Shown: positions 1,420 through 55,600 of the stretch, piece by piece
How the letters are laid out: each line of letters starts with the position of its first letter
Numbering within the stretch: position 1 is the first letter of the stretch
Position numbers and translations under genes: made by a program
Notes under the pieces: generated by a model
The model's input: the letters and a program-made list of their open reading frames with translations, nothing else
Database searches by the model: none
What the model was told of the DNA's origin: nothing
IMG/VR virus record: IMGVR_UViG_3300042914_002215
Direction: 5' to 3' (one strand)
Length of the DNA stretch: 64,000 nt
DNA from: a virus

Positions 1420-1923
1420 ATGAGTTTGGTTGAATATGCAGAAAGTGAATTAGACCGCATTGGTATGACCGATGATGATGACATGAATGGCACGATGCGT
1501 AAACATCTGCTACACATGGTAAAAGAATTTGCCGATGAAGGTCATTCTGGTTTCTCAGCCAATTATGCTTTACAATGCTTACATAAACTACTGAAATTCA
1601 AACCACTATCACCGTTGACGGGTGAAGATGATGAATGGACTGAAGTTTCTCAAAGAAGTGGTTATCCACATTTTCAAAACAAACGATGTAGTTCTGTATT
1701 CAAAGATGGTAAGAATGGTGAAGCATATGATATTGATGGTAAAGTATTTTGGGAATGGTGTAAAGATGAAGATGGAAATCCATACAAGTCATATTACACC
1801 AACCGTGAAAGTCGTGTATCCGTAACATTCCCATACACTGTACCCGATGAGCCAATCTATGAATGGCGTTATTCTGATGCTGATCCACAACAACCGGCAC
1901 AGACTGAAGAAGGCTTTGTTTGA
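1420..1923 (+). CDS. conserved phage hypothetical protein
   Basis: AAGGAG RBS; GHSGFSA, PLSPLTGEDDEW, QNKRCSSVFK motifs. Confidence 0.75.
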   Translation: MSLVEYAESELDRIGMTDDDDMNGTMRKHLLHMVKEFADEGHSGFSANYALQCLHKLLKFKPLSPLTGEDDEWTEVSQRSGYPHFQNKRCSSVFKDGKNGEAYDIDGKVFWEWCKDEDGNPYKSYYTNRESRVSVTFPYTVPDEPIYEWRYSDADPQQPAQTEEGFV

Positions 1924-2588
1924 TGCGAATTTTTGAACACGTAAAATTACCACAACTACAATTTGATCTAAATGCAGAAACTACCGATAGTGGTAGACTT
2001 TATACTACGCCAGAAGGTAACAAGTATAAGTCTATCACTACGGTGCTTTCTAATTACAACAAGCAATACATTATGGAGTGGCGCAAGGCTGTTGGTGAAG
2101 AACGAGCAAATGAAGTGTCACGCAAGGCAGCAAATCGTGGTACAAAGGTGCATAAGATTTGTGAAGATTATCTGAACAACGAAATACCAGAACTGAAGAT
2201 GCAGATGATGATGCCTGATTTGAAAGAACTATTCTTCAAAATCAAGCCACACATTGATGAGAACGTTGGTAACATTTACTCACAAGAACAAGCACTTTAT
2301 TCTGACAAACTCAGAATTGCTGGTCGTGTAGATTTGATTGCGGAGTGGAATGGTAAGTTGTCGGTCATTGACTTCAAAACATCCACTAAGCAAAAAGATG
2401 AAGAGGGTATACAGAATTACTTTATGCAGTGTACAGCATATGCACTGATGTTTGCTGAACGAACTGGTATGTGGATTGATGATATCGTGGTGCTGATTGC
2501 AACTGAAGAGGGTCCTGCTCAGATTTTTGAGCGTCAGATTCATGATTATCGGCAATCTCTGATGGAGTATATTGATAAATATGCTTGA
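1923..2588 (+). CDS. PD-(D/E)XK exonuclease (Cas4-like fold, T4-like phage type)
   Basis: SITTVL, RGTKVH, AGRVDLI, IDFKTS, YFMQCTAYA motifs. Confidence 0.85.
   Translation: MRIFEHVKLPQLQFDLNAETTDSGRLYTTPEGNKYKSITTVLSNYNKQYIMEWRKAVGEERANEVSRKAANRGTKVHKICEDYLNNEIPELKMQMMMPDLKELFFKIKPHIDENVGNIYSQEQALYSDKLRIAGRVDLIAEWNGKLSVIDFKTSTKQKDEEGIQNYFMQCTAYALMFAERTGMWIDDIVVLIATEEGPAQIFERQIHDYRQSLMEYIDKYA
2574..2581 (+). promoter_or_regulatory. T4-type late promoter-like (GATAAATA)
   Basis: xxTAAATA element 23 nt upstream of ATG 2604. Confidence 0.45.
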
Positions 2589-2603: not shown

Positions 2604-3134
2604 ATGCTATCATTAAAACAATACTTACAATTAGATGAAGGCAATCCACTTGCTAGACTGGCTAAACATGCTGAAGAGGGTAGGCATTATGCTGTTATTT
2701 CCTCACAACGACCACATGATGAAGTATCGCCAGAACAAAATAAAAAGAATCATGAAGAACTGAAGAAGAAACTGACAGCGCAAGGCTATTCACATAAGGA
2801 AGTAGAAGGACATTGGGAAGGTGGAAAAGAAAAATCAATACTCGTACATGCAAAAGGCAAAGGTGAAGAGCACGGCAAACAGTTGCTCCATGATATCAAG
2901 AAACATGGAGAACATTATAATCAAGACTCAATCTTACATCATGATGGAAAAACAGCAACCTTACATGGAACAAACAAAACTGGATTCCCAGGACACGGCA
3001 AGACTGAAAACGTAGGTAAGATGGCTTATAACAAAGCACATGCACCATTTCAAACAGAAATGAAACCAAAGTCAGACAAGCCGTTGAAGCCTGGAAGAAC
3101 AAGCAAAGGTTCTGCTAGATTCACAACGGAGTAA
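2604..3134 (+). CDS. probable capsid-internal protein (DUF3293-like core)
   Basis: GGAGG RBS; N-terminal MLSLKQYLQLDE resembles the T4 internal-protein capsid-targeting peptide; His/Lys-rich. Confidence 0.5.
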   Translation: MLSLKQYLQLDEGNPLARLAKHAEEGRHYAVISSQRPHDEVSPEQNKKNHEELKKKLTAQGYSHKEVEGHWEGGKEKSILVHAKGKGEEHGKQLLHDIKKHGEHYNQDSILHHDGKTATLHGTNKTGFPGHGKTENVGKMAYNKAHAPFQTEMKPKSDKPLKPGRTSKGSARFTTE

Positions 3135-3136
3135 TA

Positions 3137-3307
3137 ATGAAACTTAGTGAAAAAGAATATAATGAAAAACTTGATCAGTATTTGAGAGAACAAGGACCGA
3201 ATCCAGGCACTACATTCTTTGGTGCATGGGGTTGGTATGCAGCAAAGAAGAATCAGTTTGAGAAACAAATGCAGCAGGAAGGAATTGTTGTAATCCCTTC
3301 AAAGTGA
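3137..3307 (+). CDS. hypothetical protein, 56 aa (not in ORF track)
   Basis: GGAG RBS; MKLSEKEYNEKLDQYLREQGPNPGTTFFGAWGWY...IPSK*. Confidence 0.65.
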   Translation: MKLSEKEYNEKLDQYLREQGPNPGTTFFGAWGWYAAKKNQFEKQMQQEGIVVIPSK

Positions 3308-3595
3308 AGGCATTCTGGACGGCGGTTCGATTCCGCCCAGCTCCACCATAAGCACATAGTTGTCCTAGATGAAAGAAACCTCTGAGGGCTCTAGTGGGGA
3401 TTGTGTGCTTTTGATGGGGCTGACCTGGTTTCGACAGGGTGAGATAGTGGAGAAGGCAACACGAAAGGCGACGGACGTAATCCGAGCAAAATAAGTAATC
3501 GCAAATGACGACTACTACGCTCTAGCAGCCTAAATTGCTAGATGGGGTTTGAGAGGGTGTACCTTATTAACCAAACACTCTCACCAAATTTTTAT
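3285..3595 (+). ncRNA. ssrA: circularly permuted (two-piece) tmRNA gene
   Basis: T-arm GGCGG-TTCGATT-CCGCC plus CAGCTCC-A-CCA (3321-3348) lies upstream of the 5' end GGGGCTG (3416); G3:U70 pair; tag GCA AAT GAC GAC TAC TAC GCT CTA GCA GCC TAA (3501-3533) = ANDDYYALAA; outer boundaries approximate. Confidence 0.93.
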
Positions 3596-3598
3596 ATT

Positions 3599-4261
3599 AT
3601 GAAAGTATACATTTCTAATTATCGTGATCATTGGATTTCTCCATACACAATACTGGAGAAAATTTTCTTCTGGCGTGAGATTGACTATGATGAGCCTATC
3701 ATTGATAAATGGTCAAATCGTCTTGAGCCTATCAGCAAAGCAATTAAAAAAATTCTTGATACCGTTCGTCCACGTGTAGTTGATGTAAAGATTGATTACT
3801 GGGATACATGGTCAATGGATTCTACATTGGCACCTATCATTCTTCCGATGCTAAAACAATTGCGTGATACCAAACACGGTTCACCTATGGTTGACATGGA
3901 AGATGTACCTGAATACATGCGAACAACTACAACTGAAGATTGGGATTCACAACGAGTATTTGACTTCTACAATGAAAATGAACCCGAAGGATATGATGTC
4001 CATAAACGATGGGATTGGGTGTTGAACGAAATGATTTTTGCCTTTGAACATCTTGTTGATGATAATTGGGAATCAGCATTTAGTTCGGGTGAAATTGATA
4101 CGGTGTTTGTTCCGTGTCCTGACAACCCTGAATTATCAACGATGGAATATGGACCCAATCACACATATCATTGCGATTATGCCGGTATAAACAAAGTTTA
4201 TGAACGTATAGACAATGGATTGCGTTTGTTTGGTAAGTATTTTCGTCATCTCTGGGATTAA
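3599..4261 (+). CDS. conserved phage hypothetical protein
   Basis: IDYWDTWSMDSTLAPIILPMLKQL...HGSP...RWDWVLNEMIFAF...GLRLFGKYFRHLWD; start moved to ATG 3599 because the longer ORF overlaps the tmRNA. Confidence 0.8.
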   Translation: MKVYISNYRDHWISPYTILEKIFFWREIDYDEPIIDKWSNRLEPISKAIKKILDTVRPRVVDVKIDYWDTWSMDSTLAPIILPMLKQLRDTKHGSPMVDMEDVPEYMRTTTTEDWDSQRVFDFYNENEPEGYDVHKRWDWVLNEMIFAFEHLVDDNWESAFSSGEIDTVFVPCPDNPELSTMEYGPNHTYHCDYAGINKVYERIDNGLRLFGKYFRHLWD

Positions 4262-4647: not shown

Positions 4648-5199
4648 ATGCGTTACTTGACACTATTAATTTGTAGTATCTTTGCAGCATTTGTTTTATA
4701 CGTAGGACATGCAGCAGCCAATATTCGTATTCCAGTTACACCAAATGTGCAACTGGAAGATTTGACACCACACGCACGTTCAGAGGTAGAGTGTATTGCA
4801 CAGAACATGTATTTTGAAGCCGGCAGAGAACCAAAACTTGGTCAACTAGCCGTAGCATTCGTCACACATAATAGAGTTCAGTCGGGTATGTTTCCTGACA
4901 CATACTGCGGTGTCGTAAAACAAAAAGCAGAAGGTGTTTGCCAATTCTCATGGTACTGCGACAAGAGAGCAAAAGCCATGATCGACAAAAACATCTTGAC
5001 AATTGAAAGCAATTCAGTGTATAATAATCTTACTGATCTAGCATTACGCTTTTACCTATACACTGAAACATTCAAAGACCCAACAAAGGGTGCATTGTTC
5101 TTTCATGCTGATTATGTGAAACCAACTTGGAGTAACATAAAACACACAGTGCAAATAGGTAGACATATTTTTTATAACAAGGTAAAACGTAACACATGA
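4648..5199 (+). CDS. SleB/CwlJ-type cell wall hydrolase (Hydrolase_2) with N-terminal signal/TM segment
   Basis: NMYFEAGREP, AVAFVTHNRV, CQFSW, DPTKGALFFHA, IGRHIFY. Confidence 0.9.
   Translation: MRYLTLLICSIFAAFVLYVGHAAANIRIPVTPNVQLEDLTPHARSEVECIAQNMYFEAGREPKLGQLAVAFVTHNRVQSGMFPDTYCGVVKQKAEGVCQFSWYCDKRAKAMIDKNILTIESNSVYNNLTDLALRFYLYTETFKDPTKGALFFHADYVKPTWSNIKHTVQIGRHIFYNKVKRNT
4996..5025 (+). promoter_or_regulatory. sigma70-type promoter inside the hydrolase CDS
   Basis: TTGACA-N18-TATAAT. Confidence 0.6.
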
Positions 5200-5461: not shown

Positions 5462-6001
5462 ATGAGTTATGATGATTACAATGACAAGCACAACTTTACA
5501 TTTCGATTTGATTCAAATGATGGTGAACGCCATCTAGAAATGAACGTCAATGAATTGTATCTTTATGATATCTTTGCACGATTCAAAGAGTTTCTACAAG
5601 GATGCGGTTATGAAATTAATGGTGAAATTGAAGTCGTTGAATATAATTCTGAACGAGACTATGATAGCGGTTATACTTTGACAGAGCCTCCTAAACATGA
5701 GCCGAAGTTTGACTTCAGTAATATACCAAACAATAACTGGCCATTTGGTTCGTTGAAAACTGAATCTATTCCTGCATTGACTACTGCTGATTTGGCACAA
5801 ATCCAGCCAATTGATTTGTCATCTTTGAAAGTAACTAATTTGGAAACAGGTGAGGTAAAATCTCACTTTGACTGGTCAAGCATCAATAAGTATCCGACGA
5901 TGGCACCTCTGACTTCTGAACAGGTGAAATCATGGACAACTGAAATGCCTGGTACACTTGGTAGTGCAAAATATAATTGGTCGCAGTACGAAGGGCGATA
6001 A
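5462..6001 (+). CDS. hypothetical protein
   Basis: AGGAG RBS; FKEFLQGCGY motif in the N-terminal domain. Confidence 0.75.
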   Translation: MSYDDYNDKHNFTFRFDSNDGERHLEMNVNELYLYDIFARFKEFLQGCGYEINGEIEVVEYNSERDYDSGYTLTEPPKHEPKFDFSNIPNNNWPFGSLKTESIPALTTADLAQIQPIDLSSLKVTNLETGEVKSHFDWSSINKYPTMAPLTSEQVKSWTTEMPGTLGSAKYNWSQYEGR

Positions 6002-6008
6002 AATTCTG

Positions 6009-6233
6009 ATGCCTACCAAAGATGAAATGATGAAGTTCTCTTTGCAGATTGAACGGCTAGTGGCTAATACAGATTACACATATCTTGAGGCTATTGCTGA
6101 ACACTGCAAAGAGACTGGTTTGGAAATTGAGGTTGCTGCTACACTCATCACGCCAAATCTTAAATCAAAAATTCATGAGCAAGCAGAGCGTTTGAATATG
6201 TTGAAAGTGAAAGGTAATCGTTTACCGATATGA
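6009..6233 (+). CDS. gp33: late transcription co-activator
   Basis: FSLQIE..V....YLEAI..HC...LEIE....LI...LK.KI..QA..LN.L..K...LPI; directly before gp59. Confidence 0.85.
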   Translation: MPTKDEMMKFSLQIERLVANTDYTYLEAIAEHCKETGLEIEVAATLITPNLKSKIHEQAERLNMLKVKGNRLPI

Positions 6234-6841
6234 CAGGTTATGAAGCATTCTGTTTATATACTTCTCTCAAACTTCATTTCAATTCCGATTCTTACGATTA
6301 CTTTAAGTATAATGGTAAAGTAAGTACGAGTATTGATGCGTTTGAGAATCGTAAAGACAAATATCATTTCTACAAACTGAGTCGTAGATTTGCCAATGCT
6401 GAACAGGGTCGTGATTTTATTGTTGCTAATTTGGTGCATGATTCTAATGTTTGGATTGGGCATCTATTGACCAATGAATCTGATGTTGAGTATCGCAAAC
6501 GTCAGAAAGTCATACAGTCTTTGACATATACATTCACCAACGAAATTGCATCATTGATGAGTCAAGGCAGTCCTAATGATTCATTGATGGTGCAAGGTGG
6601 TGATTATCCGAAGTTGCTGACAATGCTTCTGCACGATGAACTCTCATTGGAAACAGTTTGCATATTGAATCGCCTGATGAACTTTGTGCCTATGTGGGAC
6701 AGAAAGATTGCAGACACGATTCATTATCCAAACGTCAGTAGAAAGATAAAGAAATATACACCGTTCATACAATTTGAACCGACAAAATACAAAATCATAC
6801 TAAAGAAGGAATACGATGCGAATACAGAAAATATATCTTGA
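6230..6841 (+). CDS. gp59: helicase loader
   Basis: YTSLKLHFNSDSYDYFKYNGK, RKDKYHFYKLS, SLET motifs. Confidence 0.9.
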   Translation: MTGYEAFCLYTSLKLHFNSDSYDYFKYNGKVSTSIDAFENRKDKYHFYKLSRRFANAEQGRDFIVANLVHDSNVWIGHLLTNESDVEYRKRQKVIQSLTYTFTNEIASLMSQGSPNDSLMVQGGDYPKLLTMLLHDELSLETVCILNRLMNFVPMWDRKIADTIHYPNVSRKIKKYTPFIQFEPTKYKIILKKEYDANTENIS

Positions 6842-7381: not shown

Positions 7382-8236
7382 ATGGACTTTTCTAAACTAA
7401 AAAGCAATCGCAATTCGTTTGACAAACTTACCAAAGCGATTGAATCAATCAACACACCAGCAGAAGGCTCAAAAGGCGATGATCGTTTTTGGCAGCCGGA
7501 AGTAGATAAAGCTGGTAACGGCATGGCAATCATTCGTTTTCTTCCAGCACCAGCAGTAGATGGTGACGATGCACTTCCTTGGGTTCGTATCTTTGATCAT
7601 GGCTTTCAAGGTCCTGGTGGTTGGTACATTGAAAACTCTTTGACAACTCTCAATCAAAAAGATCCAGTATCAGAGTACAACTCTGTTCTATGGAACTCTG
7701 GTATTGAAGCAAACAAAGAAATTGCACGTAAGCAGAAACGCCGTTTACATTATATCGCAAATGTGCTGATCGTTTCTGATCCAAAGAATCCTGACAATGA
7801 AGGACAGATTCGTCTGTACAAGTTTGGTAAGAAAATTTTTGATAAACTTACAGAAGCAATGAATCCACAATTTGAAGATGAGAAGGCAGTGAATCCTTTT
7901 GACTTCTGGGAAGGTGCAAACTTCAAAATCAAGATTCGTCAAGTTGAAGGCTATCGTAACTATGACAAGTCTGAGTTTGAATCTCCTTCAGCAGTGTTTG
8001 ATGGTGATGATGCAAAACTTGAAGCACTGTGGAAAAAAGAATACTCACTCAAAGAGTTTCTTGATCCTAAAAACTTTAAATCTTATGATGTGTTGAAGGC
8101 AAAACTTGACAGAGTTCTTGGTCTTGATGGTGCTGCTCCTGTTGCAAAGACAAAAGCAGAAGATTTTGTACCAAAAACATCACCTGATCTTGATGATGAA
8201 GAACTAGACTACTTCAAGTCTTTAGCAGAAGATTAA
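7382..8236 (+). CDS. gp32: single-stranded DNA-binding protein
   Basis: DKAGNGMAIIRFLP, HGFQGPGGWYIENS, GANFKIKIR..GYRNYDKSEF; acidic C-terminal tail. Confidence 0.97.
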   Translation: MDFSKLKSNRNSFDKLTKAIESINTPAEGSKGDDRFWQPEVDKAGNGMAIIRFLPAPAVDGDDALPWVRIFDHGFQGPGGWYIENSLTTLNQKDPVSEYNSVLWNSGIEANKEIARKQKRRLHYIANVLIVSDPKNPDNEGQIRLYKFGKKIFDKLTEAMNPQFEDEKAVNPFDFWEGANFKIKIRQVEGYRNYDKSEFESPSAVFDGDDAKLEALWKKEYSLKEFLDPKNFKSYDVLKAKLDRVLGLDGAAPVAKTKAEDFVPKTSPDLDDEELDYFKSLAED

Positions 8237-52688: not shown

Positions 52689-55600
52689 ATGGCTAGAAAA
52701 GCAATTATAGACACATATTACTCGTTCACACCGTCAACAAGAACGATTGTGTTTAATCAAGTGATTCAGCGTGAACGCTTTGTTCTAATTACAAACGTCA
52801 CTACGAATCAAGTAATATATAATTTTTCAGATCCTAATCTGAAGCTGACTTCTCATACAATCAGTCAGAACACGACAAGCGGTGTGTCAACAACAACAAT
52901 TGTGTTGCAGTATAATACAACTGCGATGTCGTCTACCGATAAACTTCAAGTTGTAGTTGATGAATATGCTGAAGTATTTGAACCGGATGAACTTTATACT
53001 GATCCAGTAAATAAATTCCGTGTGTCTCAGCCACAGTCTATGATCGATACAGACTTTGAATATGGTACACAAGCAACAAAATGGGAAACACTTTCTTTGG
53101 TAAATAACAGAGCATTTGCATATGCGAATGTGGCGGCTAACTCTGACGTTTCTGTTGGTGGTCCAATTAATGTTTCGGCTATTACAGTAAATTCTAATTC
53201 TAGTTTTGTTACTGTTTACACTCCAAATCCTCCAATTGTAAATACTCCAATTTTTATTACTGACACGGCTTGGGGTCCTGCTGATGGTACATATGTTGTT
53301 GATGCAGTTTTTTCTGGTTTAGGATTTAGATATACAGCAAAACAACGTTATCAAGCAACTCTTGGAGTAACAACTGGTCTGAACATTAATATTCCAGGTG
53401 TGTCACAAGTTGCTAACGGTTCAGTATTTACACGTTCAAATATCGCCATTTCTAATATCAACTTCACTGGCGTTTTTGCAAATGGTATTGTAAGAACTGT
53501 TCAGCCTCATGGCTTATCATTGGGTAATGAAATTATTCTTCAAGGAACGGTAGCAGCAACATCTGGCGCACCTAATGGTACATTTACCATCACTGGTGTT
53601 TATTCGAATACAGAATTTAGAATTGATTCTAATGTTGCACCTGTAAGTGCAACCGGTATCAATTCTGGTGGTTTTGCAAATCTATTCTCTTCAGGCCGTT
53701 CAACAGTTGTACATCGTGCTTACGATGGTGGTGTTGAGTTTAGCACAGCAGCAGAAGGTCACAACAATCAACTAATTCGCCAAACACGCCGTTATTTCCG
53801 TTATCAGTCTGGTAAAGGCATTCAAATGTCAACTGGCACTTTGATGAAACCTTCAATTCGTTTAGATAGTATTACAAGTTCAGGTGTAACCGTAACAGTA
53901 AAAACGAAAGAGCCTCATTTCTTAGATACTAATACATCTATTACAATTACTGGTTGCAATGAAAGTGCATACAATGGAACATTTACAATTAGTGAGGTTC
54001 TAGATCCTTATACACTTCGTTATATTGCTGGTAGCACACCTTCATCAGCAACAGCAACAGGACTATACTTCTTATCGGTAAATGGTTGGTACGGTGCATC
54101 GAATCGTGTTGGTATGTTTGATGATCAAAATGGTATCTTCTTTGAATTTGATGGACAACAACTATACGCAGTTCGTCGTTCTTCAACAAGACAGCTATCA
54201 GGATTCATCAGTGCTAACGTTGCAAACACACAAATAGATGGCGTATCTGTGAATGGTGTAACTACTAAGTTTGCATCTGAACTTGATGTTGGAGATTATA
54301 TTGTAATTAAAGGTATGTCGTATCGTGTTATTGAAATTAATTCTGACTCAAGATTACATGTGTCTCCTGCATACAGAGGTAATACCCAAATTCTACAAGG
54401 CGTGACTGCTAAAACGATTGACTTCAAGATCCCACAATCGCAGTGGAATTTAGATCGTTGTGATGGCACCGGTCCTTCAGGATTTAATCTTGATCTACGT
54501 AAAATGCAAATGTTTTATCTAGATTATTCTTGGTATGGCGCAGGTTTTGTTCGTTGGGGATTCCGTGGCGCAGATGGTAATATCATTTACTGCCATAAAA
54601 TGATAAACAATAATGTAAATTATGAAGCATATATGCGTTCCGGTAATTTACCAGGTCGTTATGAAACCAATACTTTTGCGCCTAGAACAAAAGTTCAAGC
54701 AACTATCAATGCAGGTGATACATCAGTAAATGTTGCGAATGCATCAGCTTTTCCGACTTCAGGAACTTTGTGGATAACAAATGGCGCTGGTCTAAGTGAG
54801 TTCGTAAATTACAATGGTGTAACTAACAGTTCACCAACAGGTTGGACATTTAATAATCTTGTTCGTGGACAGCCGGGTGCTACAATCAACTGTATTATGA
54901 GCACTTCAAATTCAGTGTTGAATCTTGTTTCAGGACAAACAACAACAGGAATTCAACTTGGTATGTTCGTGCAAAGTGCAAACGTTCCACAAGTTGCTCA
55001 AGTTGTTAGTATCAATCCTAACGTTTCAATTCAATTATCTCAAGCACCACAGATTGGTGGAACTGGTTTAGTAACATTTATTCCTATGGGTAATGTTGCT
55101 CAAACATTTACATACAGTGCTACTTCACCAACATACGCTGAGTTACATGCACCTGGATATGCGCCACGTATTGCACATTGGGGCACATCAGTAATTATGG
55201 ATGGTCGTTATGATGACGATAAATCATTCGTGTTTACGCAGGGTATGAGAGGCGGTTTATCTGTTCCTGCCGGACAACGTATGGCTCTTCAGAGTTTCCG
55301 TGTCGCACCTTCAGTGAATAATGGTGTTCCTGGTTCAGCTTTAGGTGATCGTGAAGTTGTTAATCGTATGCAAATGGTTCTTCGTCAGCTCGACTTGTTA
55401 TCAGGCGGTCAGTTCTTGATTGAAGTTGTTCTGAATGGTTCCACAGCAAATGCTGCACCAGTTTGGCAAAACGTTGGTGGTTCAAGTCTTACTCAGTATG
55501 TTAATCATGCAGTGAATACACGAATTGACGGTGGTGAAGTTATCTACGGCTTCTTCACAAACTCTTCTGGTGGTGCATCCAACTTGACTACAACTTCTAT

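What the first reader, a model, noticed from the sequence alone, without database searches (positions are those of the whole stretch)
3285..3595. Phage-encoded circularly permuted two-piece tmRNA
Seen in sequence: the 3' half of the tRNA-like domain (CATTCT-GGAC, T-arm, CAGCTCC-A-CCA ending at 3348) precedes a 67-nt spacer. The spacer folds into a 12-bp-closed hairpin (3350-3361 with 3399-3410). Then come the 5' end GGGGCTG (3416), D-loop, AGGGTG (pairs with CATTCT) and the tag ANDDYYALAA*. The Ala identity pair G3:U70 is intact. Permuted tmRNAs are established in alphaproteobacteria, some betaproteobacteria and marine picocyanobacteria. The phage tmRNAs I know of are mostly one-piece, so this compact one (~300 nt) may be an independent permutation lineage. 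Standard annotation would likely miss it or call a false ORF over it.
Basis: partly seen in the sequence, partly recalled or inferred. Interest (0 to 1): 0.85.

Follow-up and report, generated by a model that had tools for sequence, protein, structure and literature searches.

The report
Phage two-piece tmRNA, beta type
An uncultured T4-like phage carries an intact back-to-front (two-piece) gene for tmRNA, the RNA that frees stalled ribosomes. Such phage genes are already published and common, so it is an ordinary new member, except that its cut-out spacer is an unusually conserved, phage-only RNA hairpin.

Summary
ARAGORN calls a permuted tmRNA with tag ANDDYYALAA. Rfam matches tmRNA_permuted (161 bits) and beta_tmRNA end to end (158 bits, cut-off 84). 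The window is a T4-like myophage related to Melnitz and the pelagimyophages. The gene lies at their conserved PD-(D/E)XK-to-gp59 locus: 21 of 23 related contigs with enough upstream DNA carry a permuted tmRNA there. In 56 distinct relatives the acceptor stem, T-arm, P2a and the spacer's closing helix all covary, and G3:U70 is invariant.

The "independent permutation lineage" idea fails. The closest relatives score 132-162 bits on the beta model against 51-55 on alpha and cyano. The gene clusters with bacterial beta-type genes and shares their 5' end, P2 strand and 3' loop. Phage two-piece tmRNAs are published (Buchholz 2022: 53 of 133 unique phage tmRNAs). This scan has also reported them many times on other DNA.

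One thing is unexplained. The 67-nt "discarded" spacer is the best conserved part. It is 67/67 identical to two contigs whose tmRNA bodies are about 80% identical. It sits in genes with 12 different T-arms. I did not find it in about 185,000 bacterial genomes.

Verdict: new member of a known kind, low to moderate interest.

The parts
3286..3348 (+). Acceptor piece. Contains the P2 strand TGTTG (3286-3290), P2a strand CATTCTG (3311-3317), T-arm (3321-3337), acceptor 3' strand CAGCTCC (3338-3344), discriminator A (3345) and an encoded CCA (3346-3348). Its 5' end overlaps the last codons of ORF 3137-3307.
   Evidence: Rfam RF04321 and RF01850 alignments; ARAGORN; covariation of the T-arm, acceptor stem and P2a in 56 relatives.
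3349..3415 (+). Intervening sequence (67 nt), removed on maturation. It has a 12-bp closing helix (3350-3361 with 3399-3410), a near-invariant inner element (3362-3398, starting GTCCTAGATGAAAGAAA) and the leader TTGAT just before G1.
   Evidence: Fold, z = -3.18. Closing helix 94% canonical, with compensatory changes at 9 of 9 pairs and at 7 pairs in alignment A1. 67/67 identical to L009 and L013. 30 distinct instances in genes with 12 different T-arms.
3416..3594 (+). Coding piece. Contains the acceptor 5' strand GGGGCTG (3416-3422), the D-loop region, P2a strand CAGGGTG (3435-3441), P2 strand CAACA (3457-3461), the PK1 region (about 3462-3495), the tag frame, a 3' hairpin and a U run. The 3' end is approximate.
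   Evidence: RF01850 alignment over model positions 1-331, ending at 3594; fold of 3531-3600.
3501..3533 (+). Tag reading frame. Resume codon GCA, then ANDDYYALAA, then stop TAA (3531-3533).
   Evidence: ARAGORN; sequence. Relatives have intact tags that start AND- and mostly end in -LAA, -MAA or -IAA.
3553..3593 (+). 3' hairpin (3553-3560 with 3575-3582). Its loop ACCTTATTAACCAAAC resembles the bacterial beta-type loop CCTTGTTACCAAAG. A run of five T follows (3589-3593). It is probably the end of the coding piece or a weak terminator.
   Evidence: fold not significant alone, z = -0.7; aligned to the first 3' hairpin of RF01850; compared with L057 and L058.
1920..2588 (+). PD-(D/E)XK nuclease gene, the upstream synteny anchor shared with Mosig and Melnitz.
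   Evidence: Pfam PF12705 and phrog_298; Mosig and Melnitz annotations.
6230..6841 (+). gp59-like helicase loader gene, the downstream synteny anchor, 2.6 kb from the tmRNA.
   Evidence: Pfam T4_Gp59_N and T4_Gp59_C. 21 of 23 related loci have a permuted tmRNA 1.4-3.9 kb upstream.

Best explanation
This is a functional, vertically inherited phage copy of a beta-type two-piece tmRNA gene (ssrA) in a T4-like myophage of the Melnitz/pelagimyophage group.

Inferred mechanism: the gene is transcribed with the surrounding early genes as one precursor. In that precursor the acceptor stem forms between CAGCUCC-A-CCA and GGGGCUG, and the 67-nt spacer sits as a hairpin between them. Host RNase P cuts 5' of G3416, and host 3' processing trims back to the encoded CCA at 3348. 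This releases the spacer and leaves a roughly 63-nt acceptor piece base-paired through P2 and P2a to a roughly 175-nt coding piece. Host AlaRS charges it through G3:U70. Host SmpB and EF-Tu deliver it to ribosomes stalled on broken mRNAs, which are plentiful during lytic infection. Translation resumes at GCA 3501 and appends (A)ANDDYYALAA, a ClpXP/SspB-type degron. Ribosomes and amino acids are thereby recycled for phage production.

Shown here: gene identity, subtype, structural conservation, synteny, and the absence of a phage SmpB gene in complete relatives. Inferred: processing sites, charging, activity, and the benefit to the phage.
For: ARAGORN permuted call. RF01850 157.9 bits and RF04321 161.4 bits, both full length. 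Closest relatives L009 and L013 score 162.5 and 132 bits on beta, 54.8 and 50.6 on alpha, 55.2 and 53.4 on cyano. True bacterial beta-type genes score 169-296 bits. The window shares their 5' end GGTTGTAATCCC, their GGCAAC P2 strand and their 3' loop.

In the tree, the window falls in a clade of 19 viral and 2 bacterial beta-type genes (SH-like support 0.83), apart from the alpha clade (0.99).

Covariation in 56 distinct sequences: acceptor stem 99% paired with G3:U70 in 56 of 56; T-arm 100% with 5 of 5 pairs compensatory; P2a 99.5% with 6 of 7; spacer helix 94% with 9 of 9. Register-shifted controls give 32-67%.

The phage context is T4-like: gp59, gp32, gp33-like, baseplate gp6 and others. 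Synteny with Mosig and Melnitz holds, and 21 of 23 related loci carry the gene, 8 of 8 at 70% or higher gp59 identity. No SmpB gene was found in three 96-100% complete relatives, including a 172-kb genome with terminal repeats that has the same tag, so a host partner is needed.

From general knowledge of E. coli tmRNA: the tag keeps the SspB determinants (A1, A2, N3, D4, Y7) and the ClpX determinant (LAA-COOH), and an A stands at -4 before the resume codon.
Against: There are no expression or processing data. No dedicated promoter lies directly upstream. The bacterial promoter part of the RF01850 model aligns to coding sequence with the -10 deleted. The nearest sigma-70-like site, 2585-2613, overlaps the start of ORF 2604. 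The 3' hairpin is not significant on its own. The host is unknown, so compatibility with host SmpB and AlaRS is assumed. The tree is weakly resolved at depth (supports 0.49-0.51).
Confidence: 0.85

Rival explanations
1. An independent, fourth permutation lineage that arose within phages.
For: The exact TLD halves are rare in bacteria. The 32-mer T-arm/acceptor sequence hits 46 IMG/VR contigs but only 3 of about 185,000 species genomes, one of which looks like a prophage. The 24-mer 5' half hits one MAG contig. Only 3 of 151 sampled Burkholderiales genomes carry a beta-type gene.
Against: The match to RF01850 is full length, far above alpha and cyano. It has the same break points, the same P2 strands and 3' loop, and the same spacer architecture (a closing helix ending in a short GAT-type leader, TTGAT here and TAGAT in L057, just before GGGG) as bacterial genes L057-L059. 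It clusters with L057 and L058. The Fig. 5 legend of PMC9004378 already places phage genes on this branch.
Confidence: 0.04
2. A decoy rather than a rescuer. The phage RNA would titrate host SmpB or block host trans-translation, as reported for the TLD-only RNA of mycobacteriophage DS6A.
For: PMC4131195 and PMC11915505 describe the DS6A TLD-only molecule inhibiting tmRNA. The phage encodes no SmpB.
Against: The gene keeps a complete coding piece: PK1 region, resume codon, an intact 10-codon degron-like tag and a stop. Relatives keep intact tags of the same AND...LAA type. None of that would be needed for a decoy.
Confidence: 0.07
3. A captured host fragment, attachment-site remnant or decaying pseudogene with no role for the phage.
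For: tmRNA genes are common integration sites, and fragments occur in prophages (PMC9004378).
Against: The gene is complete. The phage is a T4-like lytic type, and no integrase turned up among the genes I annotated near the locus. The position is conserved in 21 of 23 related loci, with compensatory evolution in the helices.
Confidence: 0.02

Closest known systems
Cellular beta-type two-piece tmRNA (Rfam RF01850; Sharkady and Williams 2004, as cited in PMC9004378)
   Same: The gene order is the same: acceptor piece, spacer, coding piece. It matches the model over its full length at 158 bits. It shares the 5' end GGTTGTAATCCC, the GGCAAC P2 strand, a canonical GGTTCGATTCC T-loop, the 3' hairpin loop, and a spacer closed by a helix ending in a short GAT-type leader before G1.
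   Different: It is carried by a phage. CCA is fully encoded, whereas two of the three bacterial examples end in CC. The bacterial promoter and the terminal GC-rich hairpin are missing. The spacer is longer and carries a phage-specific conserved module. GC content is lower.
Two-piece tmRNAs of Methylophilales phage Melnitz and Pelagibacter phages Mosig and HTVC008M (Buchholz et al. 2022, PMC9004378)
   Same: They come from the same phage group (gp6 about 41% identical). The genomic locus is the same, between the PD-(D/E)XK nuclease and gp33/gp59/gp32. The gene is permuted in the same way. Mosig's spacer loop shares the 17-mer GTCCTAGATGAAGGAAA.
   Different: Melnitz is alpha-type (106.7 bits alpha against 25 beta) with T-loop GGGGCAGTACCC. 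Mosig is ambiguous (67.6 against 50.7). Melnitz has a glutamine riboswitch 3' of the gene; the window has none.
One-piece phage tmRNAs (mycobacteriophage Bxz1 group, Bacillus phage G; PMC4131195)
   Same: They are phage-borne ssrA genes that depend on host SmpB.
   Different: Their gene order is standard, their hosts are different, and they have four pseudoknots.

Membership tests
tmRNA (SsrA) | tRNA-like domain: a 7-bp acceptor stem with G3:U70, a T-arm, and a 3' CCA | tested here: met
   Sequence; Rfam and ARAGORN; G3:U70 in 56 of 56 relatives and covarying stems.
tmRNA (SsrA) | An internal tag reading frame with an alanine resume codon, a hydrophobic C-terminal degron and a stop codon | tested here: met
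   GCA at 3501 through TAA at 3533, ANDDYYALAA*.
tmRNA (SsrA) | Acts with SmpB, is alanylated, and rescues non-stop ribosomes | not testable with these tools
   No SmpB gene in three near-complete relatives, so host SmpB is presumed. No biochemical data exist.
Permuted (two-piece) tmRNA | The 3' half of the TLD lies upstream of the 5' half and tag frame, separated by an intervening sequence | tested here: met
   CCA at 3348, a 67-nt spacer, G1 at 3416. RF04321 scores 161.4 bits against a cut-off of 47.
Permuted (two-piece) tmRNA | The precursor is cleaved into two base-paired RNAs | not testable with these tools
   This is inferred from architecture and from the covarying helices P2a and acceptor stem that join the two pieces. 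It has not been observed here.
Beta-type two-piece tmRNA (RF01850) | Score above the curated cut-off and above the alpha and cyano models | tested here: met
   The window scores 157.9 bits against a cut-off of 84, and beta is the best clan member. The closest relatives score 162.5 and 132 on beta, 54.8 and 50.6 on alpha, 55.2 and 53.4 on cyano. The alpha and cyano scores for the window itself were not shown by the tool.
Beta-type two-piece tmRNA (RF01850) | Carried by a betaproteobacterial chromosome | tested here: not met
   The context is a T4-like phage. It is a structural member of the family carried by a virus.
Alpha-type two-piece tmRNA (RF01849) | Alpha-type TLD (GGGGGCG... with T-loop GGGGCGGTACCC) and a high model score | tested here: not met
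   The window has GGGGCTG and a GGTTCGATTCC T-loop. Relatives score 51-55 bits, whereas true alpha genes score 200-316.

The most novel reading that the evidence does not exclude
The 67-nt intervening sequence is not a passive spacer. It is a discrete, phage-specific structured RNA cassette that moves between unrelated phage tmRNA genes and, at least once, sits directly after a tRNA CCA end. Its inner roughly 37 nt are near-invariant, with variation confined to one loop base and one bulge base, while its outer helix covaries. This would fit a role of its own once excised: a stable small RNA, a factor-binding or processing guide, or a selfish element that exploits a site where excision needs no splicing.
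Probability: 0.3. Interest if true: 0.6.

Novelty: new member of a known kind. Interest (0 to 1): 0.3.

Why it matters
As a gene call it adds little. Two-piece tmRNAs in aquatic T4-like phages are published, detectable with standard tools, and were found many times in this scan.

Three points have modest value. First, related phages carry beta-type (here) and alpha-type (Melnitz) tmRNAs at the same locus. The published use of tmRNA type as a marker of host history therefore needs to allow for in-place replacement and mosaicism. Second, the type suggests a betaproteobacterial (GTDB Burkholderiales) host for this uncultured clade. Third, the excised spacer is more conserved than the tRNA-like domain it interrupts. 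If that holds up, phage tmRNA genes also serve as carriers for other RNA or protein cargo.

Tried and rejected
Host identification from the tmRNA failed. The 32-mer 3' TLD half hit only Comamonas odontotermitis (a prophage-like copy flanked by tRNAs), Serpentinimonas (one-piece) and a small MAG contig. The 24-mer 5' half hit one Pseudogulbenkiania MAG contig whose tag is odd. Two attempts to name the AT-rich bacterial beta-type genome behind L059 gave nothing or unrelated Bacillota one-piece genes.

No whole genome is held for the window, and there is no megablast match in GenBank phages.

A spacer-encoded peptide was rejected. ORF 3369-3494 has no Shine-Dalgarno sequence, runs into the TLD, and is broken by TAG in L004 and L032. 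A known RNA family in the spacer was rejected: Rfam gives no hit at E up to 10. Hammerhead-like and C/D-box-like readings of the inner motif were considered by eye and dropped, because the element order does not fit and the CUGA box is not conserved.

Covariance model R1 of the spacer found no diverged versions in the loci not chosen by the motif, so I could not build a deeper alignment. The spacer has no match in GenBank phages.

No T4 late promoter (TATAAATA) lies near the gene. The sigma-70-like site at 2585-2613 is doubtful.

MAFFT did not keep the distal P2 helix (TGTTG/CAACA) in register across subtypes, so its 62% pairing is not informative.

Full report
**1. Observation.** The region reads exactly as described.
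- P2a strand CATTCTG lies at 3311-3317.
- The T-arm is at 3321-3337.
- The acceptor 3' strand CAGCTCC is at 3338-3344, discriminator A at 3345, CCA at 3346-3348.
- A 67-nt spacer spans 3349-3415.
- GGGGCTG is at 3416-3422 and CAGGGTG at 3435-3441.
- The tag frame is 3501-3533, ANDDYYALAA*.

ARAGORN calls one gene in the 64-kb window, a permuted tmRNA with that tag. Rfam gives tmRNA_permuted RF04321 at 161.4 bits (cut-off 47) and beta_tmRNA RF01850 at 157.9 bits (cut-off 84), both covering the whole model. The spacer folds with the predicted 12-bp closing helix, z = -3.18. The 314-nt precursor folds with z = -3.86 and recovers the T-arm, the acceptor stem and the spacer hairpin.

**2. Context.** The window is a T4-like myophage.
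- DenV-like gene at 300-887.
- Tad3 (Thoeris inhibitor family) at 1420-1923.
- PD-(D/E)XK nuclease at 1920-2588.
- SAM-lyase-like gene at 2604-3134.
- Then the tmRNA.
- phrog_11543 at 3599-4261.
- Cell-wall hydrolase at 4648-5199.
- gp33-like late-transcription factor at 5958-6233.
- gp59 at 6230-6841 and gp32 at 7382-8236.
- A baseplate and tail module follows.

The nearest isolates by baseplate gp6 are Methylophilales phage Melnitz and Pelagibacter phages Mosig and HTVC008M, at about 41% amino-acid identity. No whole genome is held for the window. The closest contig found, L196, is about 90% identical over the tmRNA region. It lies in a 172-kb IMG/VR genome with terminal repeats and has the same tag. 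In Mosig and Melnitz the annotated SsrA sits at the same place, after the PD-(D/E)XK nuclease and before gp33, gp59 and gp32.

**3. Conservation.** A search with gp59 returned 80 related IMG/VR loci. Of the 23 that hold at least 4.5 kb upstream, 21 carry a permuted tmRNA on the same strand 1.4-3.9 kb upstream. All 8 of those with 70% or higher gp59 identity carry one. Separately, the 32-nt T-arm/acceptor sequence of the window occurs in 46 IMG/VR contigs, about 41 of them with a permuted tmRNA, often inside tRNA clusters.

I made an anchored alignment of 56 distinct beta-type sequences: viral ones, two of the three bacterial ones (L058, L059), the Comamonas prophage-like copy and Pseudomonas phage SM1.

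| Helix | Canonical pairing | Pairs with compensatory change |
|---|---|---|
| Acceptor stem | 99% (G3:U70 in 56 of 56) | 3 of 7 |
| T-arm | 100% | 5 of 5 |
| P2a, joining the two pieces | 99.5% | 6 of 7 |
| Spacer closing helix | 94% | 9 of 9 |

Register-shifted controls give 32-67%. The gene is under structural selection.

**4. Which lineage.** The authors of the 2025 tmRNA database recommend the three older Rfam models for subtyping permuted genes (PMC11915505). The tool shows only the best clan member for the window, and that is beta. Scores in bits for other sequences:

| Sequence | Beta | Alpha | Cyano |
|---|---|---|---|
| L009 (close relative) | 162.5 | 54.8 | 55.2 |
| L013 (close relative) | 132 | 50.6 | 53.4 |
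| Melnitz | 25 | 106.7 | no match |
| Mosig | 50.7 | 67.6 | 29.8 |
| Pseudomonas phage SM1 | 111.2 | 41.9 | 41.8 |
| True bacterial beta genes | 169-296 | not scored | not scored |
| True bacterial alpha genes | not scored | 200-316 | not scored |

The true bacterial beta genes came from only 3 of 151 sampled Burkholderiales genomes.

The window shares several features with the bacterial beta genes L057 and L058: the acceptor-piece 5' end (GGTTGTAATCCC), the P2 strand GGCAAC, the PK1 stretch GAAAGGCGACG, the 3' hairpin loop, and a spacer helix that ends in a short GAT-type leader before G1.

I built a FastTree tree on the tag-proximal core plus the 3' TLD half. It held 113 distinct sequences, with permuted genes re-ordered so that they align with one-piece genes. 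It puts the window in a clade of 19 viral and 2 bacterial beta-type genes (support 0.83), apart from the alpha clade (0.99). Deeper nodes are weak, at 0.49-0.51. One of the 27 one-piece reference sequences (L062) comes from genome G029, which is flagged unpublished.

Conclusion: this is the known beta-type permutation, not a new one.

**5. Literature.** Buchholz et al. 2022 (PMC9004378) describe the Melnitz two-piece tmRNA. They count 53 two-piece genes among 133 unique phage tmRNAs, 50 of them from marine or aquatic phages, and 17 of 47 Melnitz-like contigs with permuted tmRNAs. Their Fig. 5 legend says that the three known lineages are shared with the associated phages. This scan has itself logged many such findings. 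Two of them are on another genome that shares this very spacer, and both were judged ordinary.

**6. Mechanism.** This is inferred, not shown. The gene has no convincing promoter of its own. It overlaps the end of ORF 3137-3307, so it is probably cut out of a polycistronic early transcript. RNase P would cleave at G3416, and 3' trimming would stop at the encoded CCA. No SmpB gene was found in three 96-100% complete relatives, so the RNA must use host SmpB, AlaRS and EF-Tu.

From general knowledge of E. coli SsrA, the tag (A)ANDDYYALAA keeps the SspB contacts (A1, A2, N3, D4, Y7) and the ClpX contact (LAA). This fits a proteobacterial host. By the published host-lineage pattern, the beta type suggests a betaproteobacterium. 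The gene lies among early and anti-defence genes (Tad3, SAM lyase). The likely benefit is clearing ribosomes stalled on degraded mRNAs during takeover. I rate a decoy role as less likely, because the full tag frame is conserved.

**7. What does not fit the simple picture.** The spacer, which should be the least constrained part, is the most conserved.
- It is 67/67 identical to the spacers of L009 and L013.
- In those same two contigs the acceptor piece is 51-52/63 identical and the 5' coding part 67-71/87.
- The gene is mosaic. The acceptor piece is closest to L116 (60/63). The spacer is closest to L009 and L013. The coding piece is closest to L132 (78/86), which has an unrelated 87-nt spacer that is itself shared by other genes.

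The inner 17-mer GTCCTAGATGAARGAAA hits 70 IMG/VR stretches. About 50 lie in tmRNA spacers. A long form (67 nt) is like the window's, and a short form (44 nt) is like Mosig's.

Across 30 distinct long-form instances, the 21 nt that were not part of the search pattern are 93.5% identical on average. They vary at only two sites, a loop base and a bulge base. The flanking TLD halves are 78.6% and 67.3% identical, and they include 12 different T-arms, some beta-like and some alpha-like. The outer helix shows compensatory changes.

The module also follows a normal tRNA-Thr in L228. The 17-mer hits 42 places in about 185,000 bacterial and archaeal genomes, fewer than I estimate chance alone would give, and none has the module context. 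The module has no match in GenBank phages or in Rfam. A covariance model found no diverged intermediates.

This pattern fits a cassette that is exchanged between phage tmRNA genes, possibly with a function of its own. Earlier notes from this scan say that other phage tmRNA spacers hold small protein genes and are swapped as units. I saw such ORFs myself in related loci. In this window the spacer is a non-coding variant.

**8. Verdict.** This is a new member of a known kind. The spacer module is the only part worth a follow-up.

Noticed in passing
L002:1453-1844 (Pseudomonas phage SM1, KU245542.1 about 54019-54410); also hits H1-H6: Samunavirus-type Pseudomonas aeruginosa phages (SM1, PaMx31, UF_RH6, PA_L9, FBPa45) match the window's acceptor piece. 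In SM1 the region holds a complete beta-type permuted tmRNA (111 bits, tag ANDTSFDVRLAA). It is not annotated in the record, and in UF_RH6 and PA_L9 a 'hypothetical protein' is annotated over the matching stretch. From general knowledge, Pseudomonas itself has a one-piece tmRNA.
   Followed up: partly
L154 and L158 spacers; L190, L193, L005, L008, L033, L179, L181 spacers: Some related phage tmRNA spacers contain small ORFs. One is a 50-codon ORF with a Shine-Dalgarno sequence (MKYKIVVKIYDK...). Another is a conserved 22-codon hydrophobic peptide (MKTPDIIVVILLLIF.CVH.FF) whose stop codon TGA is the TGAT leader just before G1. This agrees with earlier scan notes about genes inside phage tmRNA spacers.
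   Followed up: partly
L228:986-1051 (-); L227 about 1258 and L238 about 5694: The conserved spacer module also occurs directly after the CCA end of an ordinary tRNA-Thr in a phage tRNA cluster. Its short form occurs in a hairpin GGGCGTCTCA..TGAGGCGCCC that is followed by TATAAATAG (late-promoter-like), with no tmRNA called nearby.
   Followed up: partly
window 3599-4261 compared with L196:943-1827: The gene immediately downstream of the tmRNA (phrog_11543, function unknown) is replaced by different DNA in the closest relative. The flanks stay 83-90% identical. This is a variable slot next to the tmRNA.
   Followed up: no
window 1420-1923, 2604-3134, 300-887: Candidate counter-defence and repair genes lie just upstream of the tmRNA: a Tad3 family Thoeris inhibitor (E 8e-42), a SAM-lyase-like protein, and a DenV-like pyrimidine-dimer glycosylase.
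   Followed up: no
L051/L053 (Comamonas odontotermitis NZ_JACHKZ010000021.1) and L018, L015: A permuted tmRNA with an unusually long tag (ANAITTAKNAIAKAMASSKKSVALDAAFA) is flanked by tRNA-Met, tRNA-Ser and tRNA-Arg. By ARAGORN tag, gene length and spacer it looks the same in a Comamonas genome and in an IMG/VR contig, which suggests a prophage-borne second tmRNA.
   Followed up: no
L036:3274-3347 (-): ARAGORN calls a tRNA with anticodon CTA (amber-reading, labelled tRNA-Pyl) directly next to a permuted tmRNA that has a long tag. This may be a phage suppressor tRNA.
   Followed up: no
L049:6399-6447 (Melnitz): Rfam confirms the published glutamine riboswitch just 3' of the Melnitz tmRNA (52.8 bits). 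The window has no counterpart. The 142-nt Melnitz spacer has a Shine-Dalgarno sequence and an ATG whose frame runs into the coding piece.
   Followed up: no
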